From assembly GCA_044892525.1 (NCBI GenBank), contig CM097885.1, forward strand, positions 9,860,001 to 9,924,000: a stretch of DNA of 64,000 bases, given 5' to 3'. Shown piece after piece: positions 6,940 to 64,000 of this stretch. Under the pieces are notes generated by a model, which saw only the letters and a program-made list of their open reading frames with translations, was not told the origin of the DNA and made no database searches. The position numbers and the translations under genes are program-made. Position 1 is the stretch's first letter; the number at the start of each line of letters is the position of its first letter. The stretch comes from Schmidtea polychroa. Taxonomy: Eukaryota.

Positions 6940-6978
<39 letters not shown>

Positions 6979-7855
6979 TTGTAAAAATGACAAAAATTTG
7001 AAACCTGATAGCGCAGTGGGCTAGACTGGCACAGTGGTTCAAATAGATAGCGGTTCAAATCACATCTGAGGTTAGTTTTTTTTCAACATAAAATAATATT
7101 AAAAATTTGAAAATAATATTGAAAATAGTGTGGGTATCTTATATTTATATTTTATTTTATTTATTTTTATTTTATTTTATATATTTTATTAATTAATTAA
7201 TTTTTTAAACATAAATATGAAAAAAAAAATATTGAAACGGGTGTGGTGGCGAACCGGTAATTATCGCCACCAGTCTTTCGAACACCCCCGGATCGATTCT
7301 ATAATGTGCACATTTATTTCTCAGTTGTTTTCGGACCTCTTTCGGATTCACTTTCGAATTCATTTGTACTTTCGAGCAGCACGCTTAAAACGCCGATGAA
7401 ATCATGTTCGAGCGAGAAGCGAATAATAAGGTGTGCTGCTATTATCGAATTGATTCTGATGTATGAGTCTGGCCAGCTTGTATATTGGAAGAGATTTGAT
7501 AAACGAAAGAGGTTGAATAAAAAAATGATCCGGATCAAAAAAACTGTTGAGAGGACAGTGAAAAAAAAAAAAAAAATTACCACTGTCCTCTCAGAGCAGT
7601 TTTACTATTTTCATAAAATATTTTATTCTTTTTCAATTTTTTAAGTTTTATATAATTTAAAATCAATAATCTGATAAAGATCAACTCTAGAGTTTGATTA
7701 AAACAGTTAGGGGTATTAAGGGTGGTTGTTTTCAAAAATATAGGGTTAAAATACTATAAAAGTATAAGTTTTAGGTTGTTTTTCTAATGGTTTAGGCGTA
7801 ATGGAGGTATGTTTTGTTGGGGGGTTGTGTTGGTTAGGGATATAAACACACTACT
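5968..7855. mobile_element. Non-autonomous mini-Polinton with ~730 bp TIRs and 6-bp TSD
   Basis: Starts AGTAGTGTG, ends CACACTACT, flanked by ACTTTC at 5962-5967 and 7856-7861; contains MCP gene fragment (6703-6929, near-identical to ~62165-62392) and tRNA-like cassette (7002-7083, like 63203-63287). Confidence 0.92.
7002..7083 (+). ncRNA. tRNA-like Pol III cassette copy in the mini-element
   Basis: A box TAGCGCAGTGG, two B-box-like GGTTCAAAT, AACCT/AGGTT closing stem, followed by a T run. Confidence 0.5.
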
Positions 7856-36400: not shown

Positions 36401-36443
36401 ATACCCATAGGGGGACAGAATATTTTTTCGGATAAACTCAGAG
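33402..36443. mobile_element. Nested TIR unit in TA context, left-arm copy
   Basis: TA-CTCTGAGTTTATCCGA ... TCGGATAAACTCAGAG-TA with subterminal GTCGTAAGGGTACT repeats. Confidence 0.7.
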
Positions 36444-37927: not shown

Positions 37928-38016
<89 letters not shown>

Positions 38017-41915: not shown

Positions 41916-42350
41916 TATATATAATAAAACTGATCAACAATAAGTATTTATTGAATGTGATTTTACGATGCAATAATAAGTTATCATTTAAAAGAAGATG
42001 TTTTTGTAAATTAGAATTCATTAGTATTTCATTGTAATTTAAATTATTTTGAATTTCACGTGGTGTTTTAAAGTGATTGAGTTGTGGTTTTTTGATGAAA
42101 GTCAACATGTTTGTTAAATTTAGACATTTTGAAAAGGTTTTCTATTGATTGTAATTAAACATATTTTTGAAGACAGATAAAAAATTAATTTAAAAACATT
42201 TCATAAAATACAATAAAGAATACTTAGTTGGTTGTTAGTAACTAGTTGTAGGTATCTGGTTGTTTGAGAGTTAGTACTTGGTATCATGTTGAAAGTATTT
42301 GTTAGCATCTAGTTAAAAATATTTAGTAACCGATTGTTGGGAACTGTTGA

Positions 42351-42438
<88 letters not shown>

Positions 42439-48308: not shown

Positions 48309-49629
48309 TATGACCATGATTAAATATTCATACGACAGACCATTAGTTGGGTCACAATTTTAGTGGTTAATGGTGTTCATTGGGTCATGGGTCGAAATTG
48401 GACATGTTCACAAGACTCTAAGTTTGAAAGATGAACACCCTTAAACACACAACTAAAAGTGATATAGAAAATATTTTTAGTGATTCGGAATTAGGAAAAA
48501 ATAAATTTTTTTTATTTTTGACTAGAAACTAGATTTAAAAGTAATTTTTACCAAAACCTTGTGAACACACTGGTTCAGTTGATTATAGTTCATCAATGGA
48601 AAAAATATAATAAATTTAAGGCATTCAGATGAGAAAAATACAAATCATACTACAAAATGTTGGCTTAGTCAAAGGCACAAAGCGACTTTTCAAAAGCTTT
48701 TCAGCCAAATTTTGATATTTTTCCGTCAAAATATTTTTTTTAAAGTTAATGACAATGTATAATTTTTAAAAAATTTTGTAAGTGACCTTCCTTACTTCTC
48801 TGTGTGATCACTCATTAGTAAGAGAGCCAAAAGATTTCGCGGCAACATTTTTTTATAATTAATTTAAACATGTTTTGAAAAATATTTTAATATTTCTAAG
48901 TGATTACGCGCCACAACATATAAAAGTTCACTTCAATCATTTTATTTTTAAAAAGTCAATTTAACAATAACAATTTTCCAAAGATAGATCAACTGGTCCC
49001 ACTTTGTCAATTTTTGTCCGATTTAAAAATAACTTTCACAATTTAGATAAAATATTTTACGAAATCTTGAAAATAATTTTCAATTTACTGCAAATTGACT
49101 TTTAAAATATTATTAAAATACTTTTAATTATTTAAAAGATTCGATTGCTCATTATTTGAATAAAGACTTACTGTTAAACTATATTATTATTACAAGCTGT
49201 TACCTGTTAAAAATGACGAAGAAATTTTTTAGTTTCGATATATTAAAATCCGGGCTGAAAATAAGTAGTGAGGAATCTATGCACCCCAGCACCCCCACCC
49301 TCAAAAAAAACAGCGCTATTGACCCATATTTTCCACATTTATATGCTTTTTTACCCCATATTCTTCACTTTTTTTAACTTTTAAACTTTGTCCCCTATTG
49401 CCATTAACCCTTAATTTCTTCCCTTAAAAGTAAAAAAGTTCGGAATAGATGTATTTATAGATTAGTAATTCCGAGAAAAGGTAACGGGGTGCATAGATTC
49501 CTCACTACTTGGTCTTAAGGATTTAAGGATTTAAAGGATTTAAGGATTTAACGTTATAAGGATTTAAAAATTAATAAAAATTAATATCAAAACCAAAACA
49601 TCGTATCCAACCAAAAAATTCTTTTAAAA

Positions 49630-52600
49630 ATGGAAGCTATTTTCAATTGTGAAATTTGTGAAAAAAATTTTAAAAATAAAACTGCTTTAACATCTCATAA
49701 AAAATCAAAAGACCATTTAATAAAAGCTAACACACTAGATGACACTAATTCCAAAATCTGTACTAAATGTAAGGATAGATATTTATTTTCAGGTTATAAG
49801 AAACATTTTAAAAATTGTATTGGAGTTCCTAAAAACAGAGAAATATTCGAATGTTCAGCATGTGGAAAAAAGATGAGGATAAAATCTTTTTACTTAAGAC
49901 ACATAGAAGATTGTGGTCTTGAAGCAAAAGATTCTGATTCAAACTCAATGACTGAAAAAGCTGAAAAACTGGAGTTTAATTGGGATGACTTCAATCACAC
50001 CGATGTAATTGCAGAAGTAAAACGAGGACCCAGATCAATCATGCAATATATAAGAGAAAATAAAAAAAAAATAATATCATCAATGGATGATGCTATAAAA
50101 AAATTTGGTAGATCAAGATTTAATGTTATAAAAGTTAAATTTACAGGAAATGCAAAATACTGGAGAGGAGATGATTCGATCGCAATGCCTCTAGATGTAA
50201 AAATTGAAACCTCATATAAATATTTATTTTCTACAAAAGCAGGAAATAAACTTGTTAATGATATAGCTAAAGAATTGGAAGAAAAACAAGAACAGGTGGA
50301 ACAAGAACTAGGAGAATCTAATTTAAGATTCCACTCTTTTCAAAACATAGAGATTGAATACTGGAGAGGTGCACCACCAAATCCTAAATCTTTTATTCAT
50401 ACACCATTCACCTCCAACCATGTTATAAATGTACAGAATAAAGATAATAAATGTTTTCAATGGTCAATACTTGCACACTTACATCCTCAAGCAACTAACC
50501 CACAGAGAGTTCAAAAATATGAAGAATATGAATCTGAATTAATATATCCAAAAGATTTTTCCCACCCAATGAAAATTGAAGATGTTCCAGCATTTGAAAA
50601 ATTAAATAATCTTAAAATTAATATTTATCAATTCATTCCAACCAAAATTACAAAAACTAGAAAAAATAAAAATTATAAACACATTATTCCTATTTACATT
50701 TCTAATATGGAAATCTCAGATGAAAAGAGAGAAGTAGATCTTTTAATATTAGAAGAAGGTAAACCAGATGAAGACTTTGATGGAGAAGAATATGGTGAAG
50801 AGGTTCAAAGCGTTCACCCGAAAAGAGAAGCAGAAGAAGGCATTTCATTAGAACCAGAAGCAGAAAGCACTGCGTCCGGAGGCACTATGTTAGATAAAAA
50901 ACTTCATTATATCTTAATAAAGAATTTTCAAAGTTTTATGAAAGGAAACACACTCATTCGTGGAGGCATATGTTGTAAAAGATGTTTATATCATTCAAGT
51001 TCAAAACTTGCTGCTATTAAACATGAGAGACTCTGTTGTAAGAATCAACCTGCTTTAATAAAAATGCCACACAAGAAAAATGCTAATATGAGGTTTAAAA
51101 ACTATTCCAATCTATTAGAAGCATTGGGAGTGGTTTATTGTGATTTTGAAGCTATAAATGTAAAACTAAGACGAACAAAAACTAATACTGTAAAACTAAC
51201 AAAACAATTACCCTCTGCTTATAAAATGTTTTTCAAAAGTAATTATCCAGAACTTGTAAAATCTAGAGAATATTCATTTAGGGGAACTTCTGACAAAGAG
51301 ACTCTAGACCATTTTGTTGAAACTTTAAATAATCTAGAACATGAATTATATATAATATTAAAATCCAACTTTCCTATGAATTTTTCAGAAGAACAAGAGG
51401 AAGAATATAAAAATGCAACACACTGCTGGATGTGCAAACAAGAGTTTGAGGATGAGGAGTCAACTAGTGAACTAAAGGTTCCTGACCATGATCATTTTAA
51501 AATAGAAAATAATTACAGAGGAGCGGCCCATAAAAATTGTAATCTCAATTGTAAAAAACCAACACACATACCATTTATATTTCACAATCTTTTTGGCTAT
51601 GATATTCACCTGTTCATTAAACATCTAGCTGCAAATGCTAAAAACTCTTTCAAGGTTATTGGACTTACAAAAGAAAAATATAAAAGCATTCAATATGGAT
51701 GCTTTAAGTTTTTGGACTCGTTAAATTTCTTAGGGATGTCTTTGGATGGGATTGCTAAAACTATGAACCCTGAGGATTTTAAATATACAAAAGAACATGT
51801 GTTATTAAAAAACAATATTCCATTAGAGGAATATAATACCTGTCTAGCAAAAGGAATCTATCCATATGATTATATAGACTCCTTTGAAAAATATAATGAA
51901 TTACTCCCACCCCAAGAAGATTTCTTTTCTGTTTTAACACAATCAGGGATTTCTGATCAGGAATATTCCCGTGCACTTAAAATGTGGAATCTTTTCAACT
52001 GTAGAAACCTTGGAGAATATACTGACATGTATCTTTCCTTAGATGTTTATATCTTAGCTGATTGCTTCGAGACATTTTCAAAAGCTTTTGAATTAAAACC
52101 TTATAATTATATAACCGCTCCCTCTCTAGCTTGGGATATATTATTATATAGCATATGGACCGATGAAGACATAGCAGAAAGAAATAAAACCATTGAATTA
52201 TTAGTTGACCTTGATATGTTTAATGTATATAAACATAATATTAGAGGAGGTATTTCTTCAGTACAAGGGAATAGAGAAATAATTGCTAATAATTTTACAA
52301 CTCTTTATCCTAAATTTTTCAAAGATACTGATGCTCTATATGTAGAAATAACAAACCCAGAAGATCGTGAGGAAATACTGGAAGGTCTTTCTAATCCTTC
52401 TGAAATAATGTATATAGATGCAACAGCTTTATATGCAGGAGTAATGACTCAATATCTTCCAATTGGCAAGTTCACCTGGGAAGAGCCCACTGAGGAATTA
52501 ATACAAGAAATTCTAAAAACACCAAAGAATTCACAATATGGATATGTCATAGAATGCGATCTTGAATATCCCAATGAAATAAAATCCAGGACAAGATTCT

Positions 52601-54012
52601 TTCCATTTGCTCCAGTAAGAAGAAAGATCTCGACTGAAGAACTTTCAGACTGGCAGATGGCTCAGGATAGATCGCCCTGTATAAAACTTTTATGCGATCA
52701 GACCGATAAAACTGATTACCTTTGTCATTATAGACTCCTTCAGTTTTATCTCTCCCATGGAATGGTTTTAAAAAAAGTACATTCCATTATTAAATTTCGA
52801 CAAGCCCCTTTTATGAAAAAATTCATAGAGGGAAATATTTTGAAAAGAAATGCAGCAAAGAGAGCTGGAAATGCATTTCTTGATATGATTTACAAACTCC
52901 TGAACAATGCGGTCTTTGGAAAGACCATGGAGAATATAGACAAGTACACACGTGTAGAGCTTTTGACCAATACATCCAAAGACCTTAATAGGTACAACCG
53001 GATAATTGGAAAGCCCACATTTAAAAATGCCGAGATATTCTCTAGTAACCTTATAGCCATAGAGATTAAAAACTCTGTAAAAACTTATAATAAACCAATC
53101 TTTATAGGGTTTTCAATTTTAGAACTTTCAAAGCTTCAAATGTATGAAGCCTACTATGATGTTCTAGTACCACATTTTGGAGATCGAATATCCATGCATG
53201 CAATGGACACTGATAGTATGTTTTTAAAAGGATATAGCAAAGATTTAAAAAAAGAAATACGTGAAGATCCAACCTTAAATAAATTAATAAACAATTCTGG
53301 AGAGTTGTTTACTTTTAAAGATGAAAAACCAAATACTCCAATAACTGGAGGAGTGTTTATTAGACCTAAACAATATTCTCTTGAAATGAAAGACAAACCA
53401 ATTATGAAAGAGCATACAATAAAATTTATAATAGAAGGATCTGTTGAAGTAGATCGAACATTTGAATATCCTTCATTCCCTGAAAACCCGAAAAGCTATA
53501 AAGAAAATAAAAGTAAAGGAATTCAAAAATCAGTGTCAAAAACCTTCACACATCAAGAGTATAAAGATTCATTAAATATAAATTATAAAAATAAAATTGC
53601 TAAAACCCATCATCTTAAATCAGAGAAACATAATATATATCTTGAAGAGTGTAACAAGATTGCTATAACAAATTATGATGATAAAAGATTTATACTTTCT
53701 GACTTGAAGACAACATTACCTATTGGAAATGATTTAATCCCTATAATAAAAAATCTTGATAAAATAAATGAAATTTATAACCTAGAGATTACAGACCTTC
53801 AACTTGCTAAAGTAGAAATCCAATATCCTGAAATATTAATTCCTAAACCTTTATATAATCAAGTTCAAAATATAAAACCTATAGAACTTAAATATTTTAA
53901 TACTGATCCTGAATATATCCAAGGACTAACACCAGAAGACTTTAAATCACATAAATTAATGTTAAAAAGCATTACTGCAGAAATAATTATAAATCAATTA
54001 CGACTGGTCTAA
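49630..54012 (+). CDS. Protein-primed family B DNA polymerase with N-terminal zinc fingers and embedded endonuclease-VII-like domain
   Basis: Exo DFE, HNLFGYD, KGIYPYDY; pol YIDATALY, KLLNNAVFGK, MDTDS; CxxC...DHDH...YRGAAHKNCN. Confidence 0.96.
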   Translation: MEAIFNCEICEKNFKNKTALTSHKKSKDHLIKANTLDDTNSKICTKCKDRYLFSGYKKHFKNCIGVPKNREIFECSACGKKMRIKSFYLRHIEDCGLEAKDSDSNSMTEKAEKLEFNWDDFNHTDVIAEVKRGPRSIMQYIRENKKKIISSMDDAIKKFGRSRFNVIKVKFTGNAKYWRGDDSIAMPLDVKIETSYKYLFSTKAGNKLVNDIAKELEEKQEQVEQELGESNLRFHSFQNIEIEYWRGAPPNPKSFIHTPFTSNHVINVQNKDNKCFQWSILAHLHPQATNPQRVQKYEEYESELIYPKDFSHPMKIEDVPAFEKLNNLKINIYQFIPTKITKTRKNKNYKHIIPIYISNMEISDEKREVDLLILEEGKPDEDFDGEEYGEEVQSVHPKREAEEGISLEPEAESTASGGTMLDKKLHYILIKNFQSFMKGNTLIRGGICCKRCLYHSSSKLAAIKHERLCCKNQPALIKMPHKKNANMRFKNYSNLLEALGVVYCDFEAINVKLRRTKTNTVKLTKQLPSAYKMFFKSNYPELVKSREYSFRGTSDKETLDHFVETLNNLEHELYIILKSNFPMNFSEEQEEEYKNATHCWMCKQEFEDEESTSELKVPDHDHFKIENNYRGAAHKNCNLNCKKPTHIPFIFHNLFGYDIHLFIKHLAANAKNSFKVIGLTKEKYKSIQYGCFKFLDSLNFLGMSLDGIAKTMNPEDFKYTKEHVLLKNNIPLEEYNTCLAKGIYPYDYIDSFEKYNELLPPQEDFFSVLTQSGISDQEYSRALKMWNLFNCRNLGEYTDMYLSLDVYILADCFETFSKAFELKPYNYITAPSLAWDILLYSIWTDEDIAERNKTIELLVDLDMFNVYKHNIRGGISSVQGNREIIANNFTTLYPKFFKDTDALYVEITNPEDREEILEGLSNPSEIMYIDATALYAGVMTQYLPIGKFTWEEPTEELIQEILKTPKNSQYGYVIECDLEYPNEIKSRTRFFPFAPVRRKISTEELSDWQMAQDRSPCIKLLCDQTDKTDYLCHYRLLQFYLSHGMVLKKVHSIIKFRQAPFMKKFIEGNILKRNAAKRAGNAFLDMIYKLLNNAVFGKTMENIDKYTRVELLTNTSKDLNRYNRIIGKPTFKNAEIFSSNLIAIEIKNSVKTYNKPIFIGFSILELSKLQMYEAYYDVLVPHFGDRISMHAMDTDSMFLKGYSKDLKKEIREDPTLNKLINNSGELFTFKDEKPNTPITGGVFIRPKQYSLEMKDKPIMKEHTIKFIIEGSVEVDRTFEYPSFPENPKSYKENKSKGIQKSVSKTFTHQEYKDSLNINYKNKIAKTHHLKSEKHNIYLEECNKIAITNYDDKRFILSDLKTTLPIGNDLIPIIKNLDKINEIYNLEITDLQLAKVEIQYPEILIPKPLYNQVQNIKPIELKYFNTDPEYIQGLTPEDFKSHKLMLKSITAEIIINQLRLV

Positions 54013-54036
54013 GAATTAGAATTTTAACACTATAAA

Positions 54037-54591
54037 ATGATGGAAACTAAAAATCAAGAAAATAACATTTTTGAAATTATAAAAAATATTACTAATTTAA
54101 AGGATAACAGATGTAAAGGAATACAGAGAGTGGTTGCAAAGAATCTTTCTCATCAAGATTATAGAGATACATTAAACCCAAATCATAAAGATAAAATTGA
54201 TGAAATACATCAACTTAAAAGTGAAAACCATGATATTCACTTGATAGAATCTCAAAAAGTATCATTATCAAATTATGATGATAAGAGATTCATACTAAGT
54301 GATTTAAAGACAACTCTACCTATTGGAAATAATTTAATCCCTATAATAAAAAATCTAGAAAAGTTGAATAAGTTATATGATACAAAGATTACTGATCTTG
54401 ATATTTATAATGTTGAAATTATTTATCCCGAGAGAGAAATCGAGAAACCTTTATATTCTCAAGTTTTTAATCCTATATGTTTAGAACTTAAATATTTTAA
54501 TACTGATCCTGAATATATAAAAGGTCTAAGTGATAAAGAATTTAAAGATCATAAATTAATGATTCATAGGTTGGCTTTCAACCATAACTGA
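54037..54591 (+). CDS. Stand-alone duplicate of the pPolB C-terminal ~160 aa
   Basis: Shares KGIQ, NYDDKRFILSDLKTTLPIGN and ELKYFNTDPEYI with the preceding ORF. Confidence 0.85.
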   Translation: MMETKNQENNIFEIIKNITNLKDNRCKGIQRVVAKNLSHQDYRDTLNPNHKDKIDEIHQLKSENHDIHLIESQKVSLSNYDDKRFILSDLKTTLPIGNNLIPIIKNLEKLNKLYDTKITDLDIYNVEIIYPEREIEKPLYSQVFNPICLELKYFNTDPEYIKGLSDKEFKDHKLMIHRLAFNHN

Positions 54592-54685
54592 AACCAACGA
54601 TATTTAATTTTTTAATAATAAAATGTCGACAATTAATTTAAGCAACTATAGCAACCTGATCTACTTTTTTAAAAATACACCCATT

Positions 54686-55297
54686 TTATAAGTAAGAATT
54701 CTTTAACCATTTTTCTCGAGATGTTTTTTTATTACTTATAACATTAGCCACCATGCCCTCCCTTTTTAATCTTATAACCTCATTCTTTATATCTTGTATT
54801 ATTTGATTTGATTTCATTATTTCTTCGTCTGTCAGGATTCCATCTTCCAAAGCTTTTAATTGAAATAAAAATAATTTAGAGATTCCTAATTCTATTGATA
54901 AACAAACTTCTCTATATAAACTTTTCTTTTTAGAAGTATAAGATAATGAAACTATTTCAGTTAAGAAACCATCAGCCACAGAAATACTTCCAAGTATTAC
55001 AGGTGCAAGAGTAACAACTGGTAAAGTTATGGGTAAAATAACTGTTAATATTGCAGATGCAAATCCTAAAGAATAACCTATAACTTTTAAAACTGTATTC
55101 CCTTTATTCCATCTATTTTTAATTTTTTTATAATGCTTTAATAAATCTTGTAAATGTAAGGTTTCTGATTTAAATTCTTTTACTCTCATAATTTCAAGTT
55201 CTGTGGGAGCCGAGGCCTTGGAACCTTTGTGACCTTCGGAATAATATCCTGATGATCTCAATTCTGGGTAAATTTTTTCTTCTCTTACTTCTTCCAT
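54686..55297 (-). CDS. Putative two-TM membrane protein
   Basis: Hydrophobic block VLKVIGYSLGFASAILTVILPITLPVVTLAPVILGSISV flanked by helical charged segments. Confidence 0.7.
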   Translation of the reverse strand: MEEVREEKIYPELRSSGYYSEGHKGSKASAPTELEIMRVKEFKSETLHLQDLLKHYKKIKNRWNKGNTVLKVIGYSLGFASAILTVILPITLPVVTLAPVILGSISVADGFLTEIVSLSYTSKKKSLYREVCLSIELGISKLFLFQLKALEDGILTDEEIMKSNQIIQDIKNEVIRLKREGMVANVISNKKTSREKWLKNSYL

Positions 55298-55305
55298 TTT
55301 AATAA

Positions 55306-56316
55306 TTAAAAAAATAAGACTTTATTCTTCTGAGCACCATCTGGCACCAATACTCGGATATCAAAAGAAACTCTTGTTGAGAGGATATCTTTATACAATT
55401 CTCTCAATGCTTTACGAACTTCATCAACATCAACCTTTTTTTCATAAAATATTAAATCTATATATTGTACAAGTGAACTAGAAAAATGAATATTCTTACT
55501 TTTAACTTTATGTAGTCCATGTGAATGAGTATTAACATACCAATCTCCGTGTGGTAAATCATAACTAGTCATTATAACATCACCCTTTTCAAGCTTACTA
55601 TTATAATCACATTTCACAAACCATTTCATTCTTTCATTATCATCATCAAACAAAAAGAAATAAGGATCAATAATTTTTACAACCATAAAAACACCCCATT
55701 CTTTACTGTTTGTTGTTATTAAACTTGGTTCTATAAAATGTTTATATGTATGGGGTAATAATGTTTTATTCTGTTCTAATTCAGCAGCTCTTTTTCTAAT
55801 ACTATGTGTGGTGTTAATGTGTGTTCCATGAGACTCTAAATTTGAAATTCTTTTATTAAATGATGTAATCATCTCATTTATTATTTTATATATTGTATTA
55901 AATTTAGTATTCATAATTTGTTTATCTTTAGAATTTAATATAGCAGTATTTAACTTTACAACTTGTTCAGTTAACAGACTTTGTAACTTGTCAAATTTAT
56001 CATTAAATCGTTGTTCGATATTATTAAGCTTTGATTCCATTGAATCAATTTTTGTTGTTAATGAACTTTCAATTCTTGTTGTTGTTAAATCAGTATAATT
56101 TTTAACACCATCAACATATTTTTTATTAACTGCATCAGCTTCATCAGTTGGTAAAGATAAATCTTTTATCTTGTGTCCATTTAAATTTAAATCTCCTTTC
56201 ATTGAATCACCTCTTTCATTAATATATTTATTTTCTGTTAAAGTTAATATTTCTTCTGTATTAAACCCTGTTTTTATTGTTCCACCACCTCTATTACAAG
56301 GAATATAAGAACTCAT
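55306..56316 (-). CDS. Putative fibre/spike-like protein
   Basis: GDSMKGDLNLNGHKIKDLSLPTDEADAVNKKYVD neck-like motif, coiled coil, then globular C-terminus. Confidence 0.6.
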   Translation of the reverse strand: MSSYIPCNRGGGTIKTGFNTEEILTLTENKYINERGDSMKGDLNLNGHKIKDLSLPTDEADAVNKKYVDGVKNYTDLTTTRIESSLTTKIDSMESKLNNIEQRFNDKFDKLQSLLTEQVVKLNTAILNSKDKQIMNTKFNTIYKIINEMITSFNKRISNLESHGTHINTTHSIRKRAAELEQNKTLLPHTYKHFIEPSLITTNSKEWGVFMVVKIIDPYFFLFDDDNERMKWFVKCDYNSKLEKGDVIMTSYDLPHGDWYVNTHSHGLHKVKSKNIHFSSSLVQYIDLIFYEKKVDVDEVRKALRELYKDILSTRVSFDIRVLVPDGAQKNKVLFF

Positions 56317-56340
56317 TTATTAATAATTTAAAATGAATCT

Positions 56341-57111
56341 TCAAACCTGTTTCAAATGTAAATACATTGAAATCTCTTCTCCATTAAAATCAATCAATTC
56401 TCCTTCTTGATTAAGAATTTTAAAATTAATATCCATTATATATTTTCTACATAAAGGTAAATAATTTGGAGGATTCATTCTTTCAACTATTTTATATCCC
56501 ATAGGAACTGTGTTTGAGGGAAAGGAATATAAAACATTTGTTTGTTTACCATTATTATAAGAACCTGTTATACAATCGCAATGAATATTTATTGTGTTTG
56601 TATTTATTATTTTTATAATATGTTCTGATGTTATTATTTTATCTTCTTTTATTGTTATATCCATAGGTTTAAATCCTAAAACTGTGTGAAAGAAACAATT
56701 ATCTAAAAAACTAATTTTTATATTCTTCAAAGTCATTACACATTTTGAAGTTGGTATATCCATTTTAATTTTAATACCTTCATTTGTTTTTTTAGAAAGT
56801 ATATCATTTAAATCTTTTATCTCATATGCCCCAGGTTCTATTGTTATAATTTCTGGTTTATGCCCATCACGAGTTTGAATAGTAAATTTATTATTATCTT
56901 TAGTTATATTAAAAATAGTATTATAAGCACAAAACCATAATAGCCCCAATTCATAATTTAAATTTTGATCTAATTTAATTGAATCTTGAAAGTTTATAGT
57001 AAAGTCTGATTCTTTTGAATTTATAGATAAAGTTCTTGAATATTTATCTGACATTATGTTTACCATTTTTTTTAAATTATCTTCCGGAAGGTTGCGAAGC
57101 TCCATTTTCAT
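56341..57111 (-). CDS. Minor capsid protein (penton, single jelly roll)
   Basis: IEPGAYEI, INIHCDCITGSYNNG, GYKIVE..PNYLP, NQEGELIDFNGEEI...LHLK. Confidence 0.85.
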   Translation of the reverse strand: MKMELRNLPEDNLKKMVNIMSDKYSRTLSINSKESDFTINFQDSIKLDQNLNYELGLLWFCAYNTIFNITKDNNKFTIQTRDGHKPEIITIEPGAYEIKDLNDILSKKTNEGIKIKMDIPTSKCVMTLKNIKISFLDNCFFHTVLGFKPMDITIKEDKIITSEHIIKIINTNTINIHCDCITGSYNNGKQTNVLYSFPSNTVPMGYKIVERMNPPNYLPLCRKYIMDINFKILNQEGELIDFNGEEISMYLHLKQV

Positions 57112-57542
57112 AGTATAGATTTTAAATCATTATAAATTTCTTGGATTAAGGAAGTGAAACCTTCTCCTTTGGACTTATTCAATCTATACAAAACATATAA
57201 ACTTATAATACCACATATTTTAGTATTATTAGGTTGAACTTGTAAAGAATTAAAAGTATAGTCCTTCGACAGATAGTCTTCAACTTCTTTAGTAGGTTTA
57301 ATCCCAAAAGAATCAAAGTATATAGATTTATTATATATACAAACCCAATGAGATCCTTTTTCATTTGAATTTTGATAATTTATAATGATATTCTTTGGAG
57401 TGTCTTCTTTCAGACTAGACAATTCATCATTCATTAATATTTTTATTTTTAAATTTAAATAATCTGCATAATCTTTTAAATCAAAATTTGTTTTTGTATT
57501 TATTCCAAATGTTTTTAAAAAATCTAATATTGAAGGAGTCAT
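57108..57542 (-). CDS. Adenain-like cysteine maturation protease
   Basis: GSHWV, YFDSFG, Q-x6-CG catalytic motifs. Confidence 0.92.
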   Translation of the reverse strand: MTPSILDFLKTFGINTKTNFDLKDYADYLNLKIKILMNDELSSLKEDTPKNIIINYQNSNEKGSHWVCIYNKSIYFDSFGIKPTKEVEDYLSKDYTFNSLQVQPNNTKICGIISLYVLYRLNKSKGEGFTSLIQEIYNDLKSIL

Positions 57543-57564
57543 TTTATATTTTATAACTTCGTAT

Positions 57565-58350
57565 TTATAACTTCGTATACTTATTAAATTTATCTTTTGA
57601 AATTATTCCTTGTTTTAATAATTCTTTAGAAATCTTTAAAATATCAGAATCTAAATTATTATGTCCTGCTTTTTTAGCTGCTAATAGTTTTCTTAATTCA
57701 ATAAAAAGATTGATTGGGTTTATCTCCTTACCCTTTCCCTGGCCCTCTCCTTCTGTGACAATATAACCCCTTTCATTTTTATTTAAATATTTCTTTAAAT
57801 CTTGAATATGTTTTGCTTTAGTACTACCATGTACTAATTCTATTAAATTTAAATATTTTTTAATTTCTAGAAGATCAACATTCTCTGAGGGATATCCACA
57901 AACTAATCCATAAAAATCATCTGTAAATTCAAAATCTAGGTGTTTAGTATTATAAACATTTTGTGAATGAATACGTGATTTATTTTCTGAATTTAAATAT
58001 AACAGAAAGTCATGTTTATTAATTGTTATTATTTGATATCCTTCAACATTAATATTAAATGTAGGTTTAATTGTTTTACTTAAACTCACATTAATTTTAG
58101 GATCAAGTATAAGAGGTTTTATATTTAAATCTTCCAACCATGGTAATTCTTTTAAATCTTGTTTATCTTCCAACTCTTTAAATTTTAAAACTTCTAACTC
58201 TTTTATGGCTTTAATTGTTGGTCCTTGTTGTTGTTGGATTACCTCATTTAATATTATAGATTCAGCGTGTTGAGTTGTATCTTTTTTATTATATTTATCT
58301 TGTTCTGATTGTAATTTTTTTAAAAGTGCTAATCTTTCTTCATATACCAT
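57565..58350 (-). CDS. Conserved Polinton protein of unknown function
   Basis: C-terminal ELRKLLAAKKAGHNN...I..EL...GII pattern recalled from Polinton ORFs; GEG/GQG/GKG motifs. Confidence 0.6.
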   Translation of the reverse strand: MVYEERLALLKKLQSEQDKYNKKDTTQHAESIILNEVIQQQQGPTIKAIKELEVLKFKELEDKQDLKELPWLEDLNIKPLILDPKINVSLSKTIKPTFNINVEGYQIITINKHDFLLYLNSENKSRIHSQNVYNTKHLDFEFTDDFYGLVCGYPSENVDLLEIKKYLNLIELVHGSTKAKHIQDLKKYLNKNERGYIVTEGEGQGKGKEINPINLFIELRKLLAAKKAGHNNLDSDILKISKELLKQGIISKDKFNKYTKL

Positions 58351-58372
58351 TTTAATGGTATTAAAAATGGTA

Positions 58373-58888
58373 TCATTTTGGTAAAGGATCCGTTGGAAAG
58401 GGTTTCAAGTATAAACCTTTACCATTTTTAATTTTACAAAGACATCCATTTTTTAAAGATTTACATATTTTTTTTAAATCATCTTTATCTTTTGAAGATA
58501 AAGATTCAGATGTAGAAATTTGATTTTTTAAAAAATCATTTAAACCACGACCTTTATAAGGATCAAGATAAAGACCTTTCCCTCCCTTCATTTTCTCGAT
58601 TTCAGTTTGTAGTTTTTCTTTTTCTAGGTCTGTCTTTTGAGATTCTTTAGCTTTTTGAACTGTAGTTGCAATTCCTCCAGCTATTCCAGCAGCACCTGAT
58701 AGTCCGGCAATGATTGCAGGTATTAAAGCCGCCAGAGGAAGAATCCCTCCTTCCTTTAGTTTTTCTTTAACTTGTTCTTTTACATGTTTTCCAATAAAAT
58801 ATTTTTTACCAGAGATTACTACTGATTTATTTTTATTTGAATTTATTAATTCTTGCAAAGATTCCTCTGTAGGGTTTTGTGTTGTCAT
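58373..58888 (-). CDS. Putative protease-processed core/membrane-active virion protein
   Basis: KEGG/ILPLAALIPAIIAG hydrophobic segment; repeated GKGLYL / GRGL motifs resembling adenain sites. Confidence 0.65.
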   Translation of the reverse strand: MTTQNPTEESLQELINSNKNKSVVISGKKYFIGKHVKEQVKEKLKEGGILPLAALIPAIIAGLSGAAGIAGGIATTVQKAKESQKTDLEKEKLQTEIEKMKGGKGLYLDPYKGRGLNDFLKNQISTSESLSSKDKDDLKKICKSLKNGCLCKIKNGKGLYLKPFPTDPLPK

Positions 58889-58904
58889 TTTATAATAAAT
58901 AAAA

Positions 58905-59684
58905 ATGGATACTTGGAAACCAATTTTAAATAGACATAAATCTAAATTTAATAATAAAGTATTTCCTGATAATTTTAGATGCTTAATTATTGGATCTTCT
59001 GGATGTGGAAAGAATGTTCTTCTTATGAGAATGTTATTAGAAGATGGTTTTTTGGATTATAATAATTTAATCTTTTATTCTACAACCATTAACCAACCGG
59101 AATTACAACTTTTGAAATGTGGATTTGAAAATAAATTAACTAAAAAAGCTATAATTGATATTTTTAAAAATCAACATACATATCCCGAAGAGGTTTTTCA
59201 TCCTTGTGATATGGTTGATTGGTACAAGGAAAAGATTTTAGAATCAGATATTAGTAATAAAAATGATTATATAGGGGATGGAATCCAGATCTTATTCTCT
59301 AATAAACCTGAAGATGTTTTACATTGTGATTTACTTCCTAAAGATAAAAAGAATCTAGTTATATTTGATGATGTTGTTAATATGAAAAATCAAGAGATTC
59401 AAAAGAGTTACTTTACACGAGGTCGACATAATAATTGTAATGTTATTTATATATCTCAAACATATTATGCTTTAGATAAAAACTCTATAAGAAATAATTC
59501 TAATTGTTTTATATTTTTTAAATTAGACAAGCGTGATAAGAATATGATTTATAATGATTTATTTTCAAATGTTGAACCTGATAAGAATATGTTTGATATG
59601 TTTGTTGATAATCATTGGAAAGAAAAATATAATTATATTTATTTGGATAGAGAAGAAGCTGAAATATGGAAAAGTTTGTTTTAG
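58905..59684 (+). CDS. A32/FtsK-like genome packaging ATPase
   Basis: GSSGCGKN, LVIFDD, RGRHNN, ISQ. Confidence 0.92.
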   Translation: MDTWKPILNRHKSKFNNKVFPDNFRCLIIGSSGCGKNVLLMRMLLEDGFLDYNNLIFYSTTINQPELQLLKCGFENKLTKKAIIDIFKNQHTYPEEVFHPCDMVDWYKEKILESDISNKNDYIGDGIQILFSNKPEDVLHCDLLPKDKKNLVIFDDVVNMKNQEIQKSYFTRGRHNNCNVIYISQTYYALDKNSIRNNSNCFIFFKLDKRDKNMIYNDLFSNVEPDKNMFDMFVDNHWKEKYNYIYLDREEAEIWKSLF

Positions 59685-59695
59685 GGCTTGTCGAC

Positions 59696-61105
59696 TTAAA
59701 AATCTGTTTTCTGTAGTTCATTATTATAAAATCTACCTAATATTTTTTCATTATTTAAATCAAAGATGCTATATGTTATTGGAGTTGTATAATGTATTTT
59801 ATTTATAATAAAAATTTCATTTGTCCATTTTGCTGTGAATCCTTTTTCAAATTTATTTTTATATTTAAATATTCTTACTCGGTCACCAATTTTAAACTTT
59901 GGTTTTTCAATAACATCATTTTCAATATTTACCACTTTAATGGTTTCAGGCTTCATGGAAGCATTTAAAGGTGTTAATTTTATAGAACTATGTACATCAT
60001 TATTATATTCATTTACAATCTTTTGTAACAATTCATTGTTCCATTTTTGTTTTCCAATAGCAGTAAAATATTTCCACATTTTATTTTTTAATGTTCTATT
60101 TAATCTTTCAACTACGACTGCTTTTCCTTCGTTTTCTGTTGAATATAATTTAATATCATTTTCATTTAAAAACTTTGTAAAAACTTTGTTATAAAATTCT
60201 GTTCCTTTATCACACCATAAATATTTTGGGATTCTTTGATTTTCTTCAAATATATTTTCAAATGCTTCTGTAATAGAATATCCTGTTTTATTTTCTAAAC
60301 ATCTTGCAAAAGCAAATCTCGTATATAAATCTATTACAGTTAAAATTATTTTATATTTTTCAGGGTCTGATGATTTGGGCATAAAGACTAAATCTGCAGA
60401 CCATGTTTGATCTTTTTCATGTACTTGAACTTTTAAATATTTTTTATTTTTTCTAAATTCATGGTGTAATTCCTTTGCATATTTTATTTCTGATTCTGTT
60501 GGGGTTTGTAAACTAGTCTTGGCTGTACTCTCGAGGGATCTTTCAATCTCTGCTTGTTCGATAATCTTTTTATAAGCAACATCTTTTGCTTTCCTAGGAA
60601 GTCTTGCACCCATGGTGATCGGACTGTGTCCTAAGCCTATGAAAATCTTACCTTTCATTGCTAATTTAACTAGAGCTCTTTGAATCTTTTCTTGGGTTGA
60701 TGGATTTTGGATACTATTTAAATCATGTATTAAATTCACATCTGCAACATGTCTATCTCTAAGATCTTCAGAGTTGTAAGCAATGTCATGTTTTAAAGCT
60801 GCTTGATCAATTCTATTTATTGGTTCTTCTCCTTGTTTAGGATTATTATTTTCATCTAATCTAATATCTAATCTTGTTCCTGGTCCAGTATAATTGTGAC
60901 GGAATAAATGTCTTTCACCTGGATATTTTTCTGTAGTAAAAGGTTTTAATATTGAAGATGTTGTTTTTGAAGATTGCAAATCGCCTCCAGCTCGTGGAAT
61001 TAGGTCACCTACTGTATGTTTTTTAGTTTTAAGATGGCTTGCTTTATGATGTCTTGTAACTTGACAATTACAAGTTTCACATCTCCAATATTTATTTAAA
61101 GACAT
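59696..61105 (-). CDS. Retroviral-like integrase with N-terminal zinc finger and parvovirus-type PLA2 domain
   Basis: WSADL, LWCDKGTEF, VVERLNRTLK; HNYTGPGT...DQAALKHDIAY...AD. Confidence 0.93.
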   Translation of the reverse strand: MSLNKYWRCETCNCQVTRHHKASHLKTKKHTVGDLIPRAGGDLQSSKTTSSILKPFTTEKYPGERHLFRHNYTGPGTRLDIRLDENNNPKQGEEPINRIDQAALKHDIAYNSEDLRDRHVADVNLIHDLNSIQNPSTQEKIQRALVKLAMKGKIFIGLGHSPITMGARLPRKAKDVAYKKIIEQAEIERSLESTAKTSLQTPTESEIKYAKELHHEFRKNKKYLKVQVHEKDQTWSADLVFMPKSSDPEKYKIILTVIDLYTRFAFARCLENKTGYSITEAFENIFEENQRIPKYLWCDKGTEFYNKVFTKFLNENDIKLYSTENEGKAVVVERLNRTLKNKMWKYFTAIGKQKWNNELLQKIVNEYNNDVHSSIKLTPLNASMKPETIKVVNIENDVIEKPKFKIGDRVRIFKYKNKFEKGFTAKWTNEIFIINKIHYTTPITYSIFDLNNEKILGRFYNNELQKTDF

Positions 61106-61134
61106 TTTAAAATGTTAAAATATCAGGGATTATA

Positions 61135-62427
61135 TCAAGAATCTCCCCTAACATTTTCGATTATTGAAATCTTTCCACCATATAATTTCATTTCTATTTT
61201 CTTTTCTTCTAATATTAATGTATATACTTTAGCTTTAAAATTAGAATCCTTTGTTACATGAAGTGTAACATCAACATTATTTATGGCTAGGCGATCATCT
61301 TGGTCTGAAACATTTATACAAAATATAGAATATAAATTTTTGAAATCTTCTAAACTTAATTGCGGTTCAACTTTGAAATCATAACATGTTTCAATATAAT
61401 TTAGATATGGGAATATGTTTTCATTATTTTCAATATTAAATTCCATTCTATTTATTGGATAATAAGAACTATTTAATTGAATTTGTATTGTTTTTAAATT
61501 ATCATCTCCAATCTTTTGAATAAATAGATTGTTATTTTTTTGGAAAGATGAATCTGTTTCTTTGAATCCAATCAAGATATATCTTGGTCGGTATGCTAAA
61601 TTTGCTACCTTTATAGAATATGTTGAACCCTCTGTCATACTAAATTCACTACAGATTCTATTTAAATAATTTACATTTATAGACTTGTTGGAATTTAATC
61701 TTTCAAGGAGTTTAATCTCAGAATGTGGGTTTAATGTCCATTCAGGTATATGTAATTCAAGTGTTGATAATTTTAATTTAGCTTTTGTATCTACAGCTCC
61801 ATAGAACAATCTTTTATCACCTTCTACTCTATTACAGATGAATTCTATAAAAACATTATGAAGTATACGATTATAGTTTTGAAGGAATCCAAACAAGTGT
61901 TTTAATTCAAAATAACCTTCAAATTTTTTAGATTTATAAAGTTCAGCTCTTTTATGGTAACCATGGTTTACATCTAAACCATCTTTATCTAAATCCCCTT
62001 TATTAACATCAGGAATCCAACCTGTTAATTCACCATATTCGTTTTTATAATCACAACCAGTCAAAATAAAATTTAACATTGTAGAATATACTCCCGGATG
62101 CAAAACAGTTTCAATTTCTGATGATCCTAGTTTTAATCTCATGTTGGAGAATAAATTTGGAAAGAAATTATTTTCTAGGGTTATATCTTTGTTTGCTTCA
62201 ATTTCTAATTCGATTTTATAATATAATTTGGCATTACAAATATCTATAGGGTTTGATGTTTGAAGAGATTGAAAAACTATATCACCCCTACGATTTAAGT
62301 TTGCAATAGATCCTGAAGTTGGGGAGATTTTTAAAATATCATTTTTTTTAATTTCATGAGTAAATTCTTTATTATAATCAAGATTTAATTTATTTTTTTC
62401 TTGAATTTTAAGATTTATGTTATTCAT
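61135..62427 (-). CDS. Major capsid protein (double jelly roll)
   Basis: Size and position; NNFFPNLFS, LKHLFGF, RPRYILIGF, QLNSSYYP, LYSIFCINVS patterns. Confidence 0.85.
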   Translation of the reverse strand: MNNINLKIQEKNKLNLDYNKEFTHEIKKNDILKISPTSGSIANLNRRGDIVFQSLQTSNPIDICNAKLYYKIELEIEANKDITLENNFFPNLFSNMRLKLGSSEIETVLHPGVYSTMLNFILTGCDYKNEYGELTGWIPDVNKGDLDKDGLDVNHGYHKRAELYKSKKFEGYFELKHLFGFLQNYNRILHNVFIEFICNRVEGDKRLFYGAVDTKAKLKLSTLELHIPEWTLNPHSEIKLLERLNSNKSINVNYLNRICSEFSMTEGSTYSIKVANLAYRPRYILIGFKETDSSFQKNNNLFIQKIGDDNLKTIQIQLNSSYYPINRMEFNIENNENIFPYLNYIETCYDFKVEPQLSLEDFKNLYSIFCINVSDQDDRLAINNVDVTLHVTKDSNFKAKVYTLILEEKKIEMKLYGGKISIIENVRGDS

Positions 62428-62483
62428 TTTTATATATTAAAATTTACACACACACAATAGGATTAATTAAATATATTATGTAA

Positions 62484-62565
62484 GCCATTATAGCGGAGTG
62501 GGAATAGGCTTCAATTTTATCACCGGGAGTACCGGGTTCAATTTTCAATTTTGGTCAATTTTTTT
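62484..62565 (+). ncRNA. tRNA-like Pol III cassette 1 (most degenerate)
   Basis: A box TAGCGGAGTGG, partial B box GGGTTCAATT, T7 run; internal T4 runs. Confidence 0.4.
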
Positions 62566-62716
62566 CGATATTTTTTTCCAACGGAATCTGATTCAGCGTA
62601 CTGATTTTAGTATATATTTAAATTTTCAGATCGATCTGAGTGGTAGTTGTCGAGAAAATGAATAATTAATTATTAATTTCATCAATAAATAGTCACACAT
62701 TAACAACTTATTTTAT

Positions 62717-62799
62717 ATTGAGTATAGCTTAGTGGTAATAGCACTCGACTGCATTGCCAATACCAATGGGTTCAAATCCCATTTCGGTCAATTTTTTTT
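62717..62799 (+). ncRNA. tRNA-like Pol III cassette 2 (tRNA-Cys-like, anticodon stem broken)
   Basis: TAGCTTAGTGGTAATAGC D arm, CTGCA loop, perfect T arm ATGGG-TTCAAAT-CCCAT, T8 run. Confidence 0.65.
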
Positions 62800-62956
62800 C
62801 AAATTTTTTTTTAAACAAAATATTGATCAGCATACTCGATTTAGTACTTTTACAAATTTTTAAGGTGATTGGTCAACGGCAACTCTTGGAAATTTAAGAT
62901 CAAAAACGTTTTAACTACCAAAAATTAATATATCCAATAAAAAAATATTTATAAAA

Positions 62957-63253
62957 ATGGATGAGTTAAAAGAAAGAATGAGAAATGAATTGAATGAAGT
63001 TAAACATAAGAGAATGAAAAGAAGAGAAGAAGAACCATTAGAATACATCAAAGAGTTGATGGTAGATAATGAAAAGTATCGACATTTTTATATGAAGGCT
63101 GTAGATGTTGCTGATATAAGATTGAAGAAAATGAAACAATTACAGGAAAGAGTTAAAGAACTTGAATCGATTATTTATAGTCTAAAAAATGACAAAAATT
63201 CAAACCTTGATGGCGCAGTGGGAATAGACTGGCACAGTGGTTCAAATGGATAG
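62957..63253 (+). CDS. Small coiled-coil protein
   Basis: AAAAATGG start, charged heptad pattern; 3' end runs into tRNA-like cassette 3. Confidence 0.6.
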   Translation: MDELKERMRNELNEVKHKRMKRREEEPLEYIKELMVDNEKYRHFYMKAVDVADIRLKKMKQLQERVKELESIIYSLKNDKNSNLDGAVGIDWHSGSNG

Positions 63254-63287
63254 TGGTTCAAATCACATCTGAGGTTAGTTTTTTTTT
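63203..63287 (+). ncRNA. tRNA-like Pol III cassette 3
   Basis: A box TGGCGCAGTGG, two GGTTCAAAT, closing stem AACCTTGAT/ATCTGAGGTT, T9 run. Confidence 0.55.
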
Positions 63288-63444
63288 CAACATAAAATAA
63301 TATTAAAAATTTGAAAATAATATTGAAAATAGTGTGGGTATCTTATATTTATAAAGTACTTGTATATTTTATTTTATTTATTTTATTTTATTTTATTTTT
63401 TTATTAATTAATTATTTTTTAAACATAAATATGAAAAAAAAAAT

Positions 63445-63835
63445 ATTGAAACGGGTGATGGTGGCGAACCGGTAATTATCGCCACCTGTCTTTCGAACAC
63501 CCCCGGATCGATCCCGGTAATGTGCACATTTATTTCTCAGTTGTTTTCGGACCTCTTTCGGATTCGCTTTCGAATTCATTTGTACTTTCGAGCAGCACAC
63601 TTAAAACGCCGTTGAAATCGACTTCGTGAGCGAGAAGCGAATAATAAGGCGTGCTGCTATTATCGGATTGATTCTGATGTATGAGTCTGGCCAGCTTGTA
63701 TATTGGAAGAGATTTGATAAACGAAAGAGGTTGATAAATAAAAAAAAAATGATCCGGATCAAAAAAAAACTGTTGAGGGGACAGTGAAAAAAAAAAAAAA
63801 AAAAAAAATACCACTGTCCCCTCAGAGCAGTTTTA
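63445..63835. other. GC-rich multi-hairpin subterminal module (copies at ~6220-6590 and ~7230-7605)
   Basis: Nested complementary segments and repeated CTTTCG/CGAAAG motifs; present three times in the window. Confidence 0.75.
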
Positions 63836-64000
63836 CTATTTTCATAAAATTTTTTATTTTTAAAACTTTCAAAACCTTAAGGTGATCAGGCGACCTAGAT
63901 CATTATGAATTAGGTAATCTGATATTCTTATAACATTAAATCCTTAAGACCAAGTAGTGAGGAATCTATGCACCCCGTTACCTTTTCTCGGAATTACTAA

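What the first reader, a model, noticed from the sequence alone, without database searches (positions are those of the whole stretch)
63445..63835. GC-rich multi-stem module retained in three copies: structured ncRNA or cis-acting origin/packaging signal
Seen (+ strand): GGGTG/CACCC enclosing GGTGGCGA/TCGCCACC; a long-range ACCTCTTTCG/CGAAAGAGGT stem enclosing GCAGCAC/GTGCTGC and TTATCGGAT/ATTTGATAA; palindrome TGATCCGGATCA; hairpin TGAGGGGACAGTG/CACTGTCCCCTCA. That hairpin reads TGAGAGGACAGTG/CACTGTCCTCTCA in the mini-element, a compensatory double change. Several differences between copies give G-U pairs on this strand, though not all. TTTCG/CGAAA recurs at least six times, which could be tetraloops or protein-binding sites. 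The mini-element lost all intact genes but keeps this module at both ends. Inference: a functional folded RNA or ssDNA element; I cannot assign it to a known ribozyme class.
Basis: partly seen in the sequence, partly recalled or inferred. Interest (0 to 1): 0.8.

Follow-up and report, generated by a model that had tools for sequence, protein, structure and literature searches.

The report
Polinton-encoded folded noncoding RNA gene
A virus-like Polinton transposon carries, beside its ends and in more than two thousand genomic copies, a 390-base stretch whose stems are kept by compensating changes; it is likely a folded RNA made by RNA polymerase III that would, like adenovirus VA RNA, engage the host's RNA-silencing machinery.

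Summary
The stems are real. The module lies between the capsid gene and the right terminal repeat of an intact Polinton/Maverick. A 21-mer from it occurs 2,320 times in the genome. Divergent sub-lineages (70-85% identical) give covariation: one 11-bp helix has 7 two-sided changes, and G·U outnumbers A·C 14:2, which points to + strand RNA. The module has a TATA-like word at -29, an A box and a T5-T8 run behind the last hairpin, but no intact B box; a canonical A/B-box tRNA-like cassette lies just upstream. Six whole sister Polintons lack the module, so it is not an obligatory origin or packaging signal. It has no Rfam or ribozyme match. Contigs of two runs guessed to be RNA pile up on it, which is only a hint of expression. 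Best reading: a VA/EBER/TMER-like Pol III RNA whose near-invariant 61-nt hairpin would act as Dicer substrate or decoy; the function is untested. The scan noted this RNA before on other DNA of this genome (e1-9939412, e1-7907740). My paper searches found no description of it.

The parts
63453..63855 (+). Predicted RNA gene, about 390-400 nt; start and end inferred from promoter-like and terminator-like signals
63424..63431 (+). TATA-like word CATAAATA (TATAAATA in the old subfamily D), 28-29 nt before the first stem
   Evidence: 159 of 176 heads at 28-29 nt, 7 at 27 or 30, 10 without
63453..63502 (+). tRNA-like head: acceptor-like stem plus D-arm-like hairpin holding the A box (63462-72); degenerate B-box-like word at 63490-500; no anticodon arm, no proper T arm
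   Evidence: helix 1: 2 two-sided changes, only 85.5% of cells paired; RNAalifold did not predict it
63503..63761 (+). Long-range helix P0 (63503-10 with 63750-57) using half of the conserved palindrome 63750-61
   Evidence: no two-sided change
63550..63732 (+). Core multi-way junction closed by helix P1 (63550-60/63722-32); P2 hairpin 63561-77 weakly kept; conserved linker ending in CTTTCG
   Evidence: P1 nearly invariant, so it says little on covariation
63591..63658 (+). Helix P3 with a 44-nt purine-rich loop holding two small covarying helices (63607-09/63637-39 and 63624-25/63632-33)
   Evidence: 7 of 11 pairs with two-sided changes; helices 5 and 6 one each
63660..63720 (+). Helix P4: 61-nt hairpin, 25 bp with 9 G·U and 0 A·C; loop and apical 3' strand nearly invariant; GA/GA loop closes to G·U/A-U pairs in old subfamilies
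   Evidence: variants under other organism labels
63767..63855 (+). 3' hairpin with variable A-rich loop, followed by T4, T4 and T6 (63850-55), the predicted Pol III terminator
   Evidence: first T>=5 run 16-29 nt from the hairpin's 3' arm in 160 of 167 copies
63203..63287 (+). tRNA-like cassette t3: canonical A box 63211-21, B box 63255-65, T9 terminator; upstream of the module in 76 of 80 sampled loci
62720..62796 (+). tRNA-like cassette t2 (Rfam tRNA 26.7 bits, below the 29-bit cut-off); in only some elements
62484..62566 (+). Degenerate tRNA-like cassette t1; in only some elements
61135..62427 (-). Double jelly-roll major capsid gene of the host Polinton
   Evidence: PF21738 E 1.2e-26
49264..64000 (.). 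Host Polinton/Maverick, running to window-equivalent 64198; about 270-bp TIRs starting AGTAGT, TSD AAAATA; pPolB, A32 ATPase, rve integrase, capsid
5968..7855 (.). Internally deleted mini-element of the long-TIR subfamily; 687-bp TIRs, TSD ACTTTC, capsid-gene remnant 6703-6971
7239..7633 (+). Module copy in the right TIR of the mini-element
6199..6580 (-). Module copy in the left TIR of the mini-element

Best explanation
The module is a conserved, covarying structure in the ends of a Polinton family and is likely a noncoding RNA gene read toward the element's end by RNA polymerase III; its near-invariant 61-nt G·U-rich hairpin is predicted to be bound or cut by the host's Dicer-type machinery, so that the RNA would serve the element as a VA-RNA-like counter-silencing decoy or small-RNA source. 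Shown: location, copy number, covariation, + strand preference, A box, TATA-like word at fixed distance, T-run behind the last hairpin, upstream A/B-box cassette, dispensability in cis. Inferred: transcription and its ends (about 85% that it is an RNA gene), Pol III rather than Pol II (about 65%), with the missing B box made up for by the TATA-like word and the upstream cassette. Untested: protein partners, processing and effect on silencing.
For: Covariation on 25 diverse copies: 94.1% of cells paired against 34-45% when partners are slid; 14 of 81 pairs with two-sided change; covariation score 0.160 against 0.104 shuffled, 0 of 500. RNAalifold finds P0, P1, P3, P4 and the 3' hairpin unaided. 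Strand: G·U types 14, A·C types 2, other mismatches 0 over 43 core pairs (p 0.004). + strand more stable in 29 of 29 copies as RNA (mean -131.7 vs -107.0 kcal/mol), with a small gap as DNA (-65.4 vs -59.4). Frequent 1-2 nt indels argue against a coding role. Pol III signs: A box kept in subfamily D while its stem changes; T>=5 behind the hairpin in 160 of 167 copies and none inside in 169 of 175; host tRNA-Lys has an internal T4 and the three host Pol III gene types seen end in T5-T7. Contigs filed under three other organism labels cover the core; in X10 module pieces are 85-95% identical and capsid-gene pieces 81-83%. Expression hint: run X1, guessed RNA, has summed contig depth 16,576 and 10,298 on the two core bins, 0-122 on the 15 integrase/capsid bins up to 62364 and 0 on 63808-64000; DNA-like X11 has 0.27-2.5 million on all 30 bins; X3, another study, has one contig over 63518-63768. 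VA RNA as Dicer substrate and inhibitor of miRNA biogenesis: PMC4378190, passages.
Against: The internal B box is not intact: first G and last C of the recalled GTTCRANNC consensus differ in all 24 copies aligned over it, and the A also differs in most D copies. The three host Pol III gene types seen have no TATA at -29, so TATA plus an AATAAA/ATTAAA word about 20 nt before a CA (63736-61) leaves Pol II open. Lack of T5 is no surprise by itself: 71% of shuffles lack it, and L254 and L255 have T5 in the hairpin loop. Most two-sided changes are one lineage contrast, copies are related, and 'further pair types' was below the shuffles (46 vs 50, 499 of 500). The z-score favoured the - strand in 1 of 6 copies (12 shuffles each). 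Seven of 20 D-type loci left out of the alignment have deletions in the module. The depth evidence is weak by the tool's own terms: the runs are only guessed RNA, were found with this module, and contig depth cannot rank genes or show strand or ends. Nothing here tests function, and a pure dsRNA decoy would not need so fixed a sequence.
Confidence: 0.45

Rival explanations
1. It is a Pol III RNA that works as a scaffold in a ribonucleoprotein (capsid assembly, genome packaging, translation control or dimer formation) and not on silencing.
For: Multi-way junction with a conserved purine-rich loop that has its own covarying mini-helices. Self-complementary words in the P4 loop and in the A-flanked palindrome are kept in subfamily D and under another organism label. 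A-rich linkers recall BC1/BC200 and the subterminal position recalls phi29 pRNA (both recalled, not tested).
Against: Sister Polintons with 90-98% identical capsids lack it, so it is not a core part of the motor. The palindrome also pairs within the molecule as P0.
Confidence: 0.2
2. It is a Pol II, capped and polyadenylated noncoding RNA of about 310 nt that starts at the TATA-like word and is cut after GGATC, with the last hairpin outside the mature RNA.
For: TATA-like word at -29; AATAAA or ATTAAA about 20 nt before a CA in most aligned copies; an A-rich loose end behind 63749 in X1 and no X1/X3 cover beyond about 63770.
Against: A box conserved at +8/+9; compensated 3' hairpin followed by T5-T8; neighbouring A/B-box cassettes. 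Internal A runs can explain oligo-dT capture, and 63777-63818 was masked in the laying.
Confidence: 0.17
3. It is a cis-acting single-stranded DNA structure (origin, packaging or integration signal) of this Polinton lineage, and any RNA is a by-product.
For: Position 350-750 bp from the element end; part of both TIRs in the commonest subfamily (51 of 80 sampled loci have that TIR); DNA also folds.
Against: Six whole sister elements lack it; their TIRs are 91-99.5% identical, with 4 exact TSDs, 1 with one mismatch and 1 unresolved. The window's subfamily has it at one end only. Nine G·U pairs are kept in one helix. Inside a TIR panhandle it would be paired with its complement (inference).
Confidence: 0.08
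4. It is a self-cleaving ribozyme of an undescribed class, or a passively carried SINE-like insert.
For: Compact junction with conserved single-stranded linkers; tRNA-like head and A-rich tail as in SINEs.
Against: No Rfam match. By eye, no complete hammerhead or HDV-like core (recalled motifs). 78 of 80 sampled copies have Polinton flanks, so it does not move by itself, and a passive insert would not covary.
Confidence: 0.06

Closest known systems
Adenovirus VA RNAI/II (PMC4378190, passages read)
   Same: Structured noncoding unit in a linear dsDNA, pPolB/double jelly-roll element; internal A box; U-run end; long imperfect helix; predicted similar role on Dicer or dsRNA sensors.
   Different: About 390 nt against about 160; no intact B box; 5' and 3' ends not paired into a terminal stem; subterminal and often in both TIRs; no Rfam match; integrated in more than two thousand copies.
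Murine gammaherpesvirus 68 TMERs (PMC4337559, passages read)
   Same: Row of tRNA-like Pol III units at a genome end; tRNA-like 5' part followed by hairpins of pre-miRNA size.
   Different: The head is no cloverleaf (no anticodon arm or T stem; ARAGORN finds none); the hairpin sits in a closed multi-way junction; no small RNA shown.
EBV EBER1/2 (PMC8223928 and PMC4378190, passages read)
   Same: Multi-stem RNA with internal Pol III boxes plus an upstream TATA-like element.
   Different: More than twice as long; B box degenerate; different virus class; no sequence or Rfam similarity.
Polinton/Maverick (adintovirus) elements (PMC8502044, term search only)
   Same: The carrier has pPolB, rve integrase, A32 ATPase, DJR capsid, AGTAGT TIRs and a 6-bp TSD.
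   Different: That paper has no hit for 'non-coding', 'noncoding' or 'hairpin'; sister lineages here lack the RNA module.
BC1/BC200 RNA and phi29 pRNA (recalled, no call)
   Same: BC1: tRNA-derived head, A-rich middle, 3' stem-loop. pRNA: subterminal structured RNA of a protein-primed virus.
   Different: No sequence evidence; a large conserved junction unlike BC1; dispensable and with a different capsid and motor type from phi29.

Membership tests
Polinton/Maverick (carrier) | pPolB, rve integrase, A32 ATPase, DJR capsid | tested here: met
   PF03175, PF00665, PF04665, PF21738
Polinton/Maverick (carrier) | TIRs starting AGTAGT and a 6-bp TSD | tested here: met
   about 270-bp TIR, 98.5% identical, TSD AAAATA
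Adenovirus VA RNA | Match to the Rfam VA model | tested here: not met
   no such match
Adenovirus VA RNA | Internal A box | tested here: met
   63462-72, kept in subfamily D; consensus recalled
Adenovirus VA RNA | Internal B box | tested here: not met
   63490-500 lacks the first G and last C of the recalled consensus; the intact B box is in t3, about 190 nt upstream
Adenovirus VA RNA | About 160 nt with paired 5' and 3' ends | tested here: not met
   about 390 nt; head and 3' hairpin fold separately
Viral Pol III ncRNAs (VA/EBER/TMER) | T-run terminator right after the structured part | tested here: met
   160 of 167 copies; host terminators T5-T7
Viral Pol III ncRNAs (VA/EBER/TMER) | Abundant discrete transcript | tested here: inconclusive
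   contig pile-up in runs only guessed to be RNA; no strand, ends or level
Viral Pol III ncRNAs (VA/EBER/TMER) | Transcription by Pol III; binding of La, PKR-like sensors or Dicer | not testable with these tools
   needs inhibitor, ChIP and binding data
MHV68 TMER | 5' tRNA cloverleaf cleavable by RNase Z | tested here: not met
   ARAGORN 0 genes; no Rfam tRNA hit on the head
MHV68 TMER / pre-miRNA | Hairpin that yields a defined ~22-nt RNA | tested here: inconclusive
   61-nt hairpin with the apical 3' strand more fixed than the 5' strand; no small-RNA reads available
Known self-cleaving ribozymes | Match to an Rfam ribozyme model | tested here: not met
Known self-cleaving ribozymes | Self-cleavage | not testable with these tools
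   bench assay
SINE | Independent dispersal outside the carrier | tested here: not met
   78 of 80 loci with Polinton flanks
Obligatory cis origin/packaging signal | Present in all integrated whole elements of the clade | tested here: not met
   6 of 6 fetched whole sister elements lack it; these were chosen because it was absent beside the capsid gene
SRP RNA (7SL) | Similarity to host 7SL or to Rfam SRP models | tested here: not met
   only short AT-rich flank matches

The most novel reading that the evidence does not exclude
A Polinton lineage encodes its own abundant structured RNA that suppresses or hijacks the host's small-RNA defence. It would be the first functional noncoding RNA of Polintons, a counterpart of adenovirus VA RNA in the group thought ancestral to adenoviruses, and a possible reason why the RNA-bearing lineage reached thousands of copies.
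Probability: 0.3. Interest if true: 0.85.

Novelty: new variant of a known kind. Interest (0 to 1): 0.62.

Why it matters
Polintons are described by their proteins, and seven paper searches (listings only, open-access library, supplements not seen) showed no Polinton-encoded structured RNA. An RNA family with no Rfam match, real covariation and over two thousand gene copies would extend viral Pol III RNAs to integrated, virus-like transposons. It would also give a direct handle on how such elements cope with piRNA/RNAi control; piRNA repression of Polintons is reported in planarians (PMC8532177, passages read; that this host is a planarian is my untested guess). Sister lineages with and without the RNA in one genome are a natural comparison.

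Tried and rejected
Rfam at gathering threshold on the window: 0. At E<=10 on 62400-64000: 15 weak hits, none at gathering score. On four D-type loci: 1 weak miRNA hit. ARAGORN: 0 in the window and in 11 metagenome loci. Sequencing-run search: no RNA holder listed. Parts without cover in the laid runs are not used as evidence, except the stated weak hint from X1 and X3. Exact-motif scans of metagenome and viral contigs: 0. Capsid relatives in viral contigs: none. In metagenomes: 36 loci, mostly short; the two read by eye have another gene order, and neither blastn nor a profile of the module found it there (best E 3.8). No second Polinton family closer to three foreign capsid queries stood out in G000. 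Complementarity of the P4 arms to the element's own strands was no better than shuffles. cUUCGg tetraloops: absent. An invariant P4 3' arm was first suspected and then rejected: positions 63709, 63710, 63715 and 63720 vary in-genome, and only the loop and apical strand are near-invariant. The A-box count is circular because the search anchor required an A-box-like word; only the TATA spacing from that call is used. A short ORF across the head is not kept in frame between copies. Hammerhead, HDV-like, Sm-site, T-loop and triple-helix readings were considered by eye from recalled motifs and not supported.

Full report
Setting. The module lies in the right end of an intact Polinton/Maverick: pPolB 49630-54012, A32 ATPase 58905-59684, rve integrase 59696-61105 (-) and double jelly-roll capsid 61135-62427 (-). 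The TIRs are about 270 bp and start AGTAGT; the element runs from 49264 to window-equivalent 64198 with the TSD AAAATA. The module sits about 1 kb from the capsid start and about 350 bp from the end. The genome is 781 Mb with four large contigs. The host is not given; planarian is my recalled guess and was not tested.

Observation. The + strand folds at -134.9 kcal/mol (z -7.6) and the - strand at -108.2 (z -4.9), with 0 of 100 shuffles as stable. The other two copies are the arms of the 687-bp TIR of a mini-element (5968-7855, TSD ACTTTC). Full-length elements of that subfamily carry the module in both TIRs as well, so retention there is automatic. A 21-mer from the long hairpin has 2,320 exact hits, reversed control 0. 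I took 80 of the first 100 listed hits, mostly skipping places already held: 76 hold a full module, 78 have Polinton flanks and 76 have the tRNA-like cassette t3 upstream. It is part of the element and not a free SINE.

Structure. A motif read from foreign-labelled contigs and a degenerate pattern led to two older subfamilies, C (78-83% identical) and D (70-80%). D modules lie next to capsid or PolB genes, so at either end. I aligned 25 copies chosen for diversity. Left out were near-duplicates, two identical D loci and seven D loci with deletions. RNAalifold predicted P0, P1, P3, P4 and the 3' hairpin but not the head. On my 81-pair model, 94.1% of cells pair (slid controls 34-45%), 14 pairs change on both sides (12 of 500 shuffles), and the covariation score is 0.160 against 0.104 (0 of 500); further pair types fall below the shuffles (46 vs 50). 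Helix P3 is the clearest case, with 7 of 11 pairs changed on both sides in register; two mini-helices in its loop also covary. Most of these changes are one lineage contrast, so they are not independent events. G·U types outnumber A·C types 14 to 2 over 43 core pairs. The + strand is more stable in 29 of 29 copies with RNA energies, while DNA energies give only a small gap. This points to a + strand RNA.

Promoter and end. A TATA-like word lies 28-29 nt before the first stem in 159 of 176 heads. The A box at +8/+9 survives in subfamily D while its stem changes; the B-box-like word lacks key positions in every copy aligned over it (consensus recalled). The cassette t3, about 190 nt upstream, has canonical A and B boxes and a T9 run. 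A T>=5 run follows the last hairpin in 160 of 167 copies, and 169 of 175 copies have none inside, although 71% of shuffles also have none. Host tRNA-Lys contains T4, and the three host Pol III gene types seen end in T5-T7 but show no TATA at -29. EBERs combine internal boxes with an upstream TATA-like element (PMC8223928, passages). Pol III is the better reading; a Pol II reading with AATAAA/ATTAAA before 63761 remains open.

Expression and spread. No run on record as RNA holds the stretch, which is no evidence either way. Contigs of run X1, guessed RNA, have summed depth 16,576 and 10,298 on the core bins, 2,409 on the bin before, 650-850 over t3, 453 at 62365-62475, 0-122 on the 15 bins from 60700 to 62364, and 0 beyond 63808. 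DNA-like X11 covers all 30 bins at 0.27-2.5 million. X3, from another study, has one contig over 63518-63768 at depth 62; its longer coding pieces are at 8-16, and one 34-nt piece at 100 runs on into unrelated sequence. The tool warns that such depths cannot rank genes and that the runs were found with this module, so this is a hint only. Runs under three other organism labels cover mainly the core at 80% or more. In X10, module pieces are 85-95% identical, capsid pieces 81-83% and an integrase piece 85%. In organism C the listed P4 changes keep pairs on the + strand, apart from one terminal pair and the internal loop; the table lists only part of each contig's differences.

Not an obligatory cis signal. 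Beside the capsid gene the module was present in 18 of 20 and 10 of 17 hand-picked loci. Six module-less elements were fetched whole. Their capsids are 90-98% identical to the window's, their TIRs 91-99.5% identical, with four exact TSDs, one with a mismatch and one unresolved, and they have no module, t3 or A+B cassette anywhere. The module is therefore accessory to one lineage.

Mechanism. The likely product is a roughly 390-nt Pol III RNA with a tRNA-like head, a multi-way core and a 3' hairpin plus U tail. The most fixed sequence is the loop and apical 3' strand of the 61-nt P4 hairpin, a size and asymmetry that fit a Dicer substrate. VA RNA is such a substrate and can compromise miRNA biogenesis (PMC4378190, passages). 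TMERs are tRNA-miRNA hybrids at a genome end and are dispensable for replication (PMC4337559, passages). Polintons are under piRNA control in planarians (PMC8532177, passages). I put a counter-silencing role at 0.45, an RNP scaffold at 0.2, a Pol II RNA at 0.17, a DNA signal at 0.08, and a ribozyme or passive insert at 0.06. No target was found in the element itself.

Comparison and novelty. It works like a viral Pol III RNA but is not a member of VA, EBER or TMER: there is no Rfam match, no intact B box and no cloverleaf, and it is more than twice their length. Seven paper searches (listings only) and a term search of the adintovirus paper showed no Polinton RNA of this kind; subscription papers, repeat databases and supplements were not seen. 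A bioRxiv preprint (10.64898/2025.12.11.693146, passages) reports Maverick expansions in flatworms; only its Maverick passages were read. The scan's earlier notes describe the same RNA elsewhere in this genome and a shorter Pol III-type hairpin in another animal's Polinton. They are unchecked leads, not support; my VA-like reading was recorded before I saw them. Added here are the module-less whole elements, the pair statistics on subfamilies C and D, the cross-label conservation and the expression hint. Verdict: real, a new variant of a known kind, function untested; interest 0.62.

Noticed in passing
window 29602-44319: A very large inverted repeat (34372-36991 with 38151-40771 at 99.4%; 32132-34563 with 40757-43230; 29602-30639 with 43231-44319) built from tandem-repeat blocks, about 15 kb in all.
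   Followed up: no
window 53500-54591: The 3' end of the PolB gene is duplicated as a separate 184-aa ORF (about 73% DNA identity).
   Followed up: no
window 59696-61105 (-): The integrase carries an N-terminal phospholipase A2-like domain (PF08398).
   Followed up: no
window 62957-63229 (+): A 90-aa ORF without a Pfam match runs into cassette t3; a similar ORF lies beside the capsid gene of module-less element L234.
   Followed up: partly
window 62484-62796: Cassettes t1 and t2 occur in only some elements, and t3 is often doubled.
   Followed up: partly
window 63928-64198 and L236, L237, L242-L244: The TIRs of several subfamilies contain an inner inverted copy of their own terminal ~24-34 nt, so each TIR can fold back on itself.
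   Followed up: no
L024, L004, L023, L069: Rearranged copies with local duplications or inversions of the module and element end.
   Followed up: no
L272-L294, L295-L301, L302-L307: Host tRNA-Lys (424-bp period), tRNA-Arg (278-bp multiples) and 7SL (593-bp period) genes lie in long tandem arrays.
   Followed up: no
L265-L268, L270, L271: Old subfamily D copies often carry different deletions inside the P3 loop, apparently between short repeats; whether these arose before or after insertion is unknown.
   Followed up: partly
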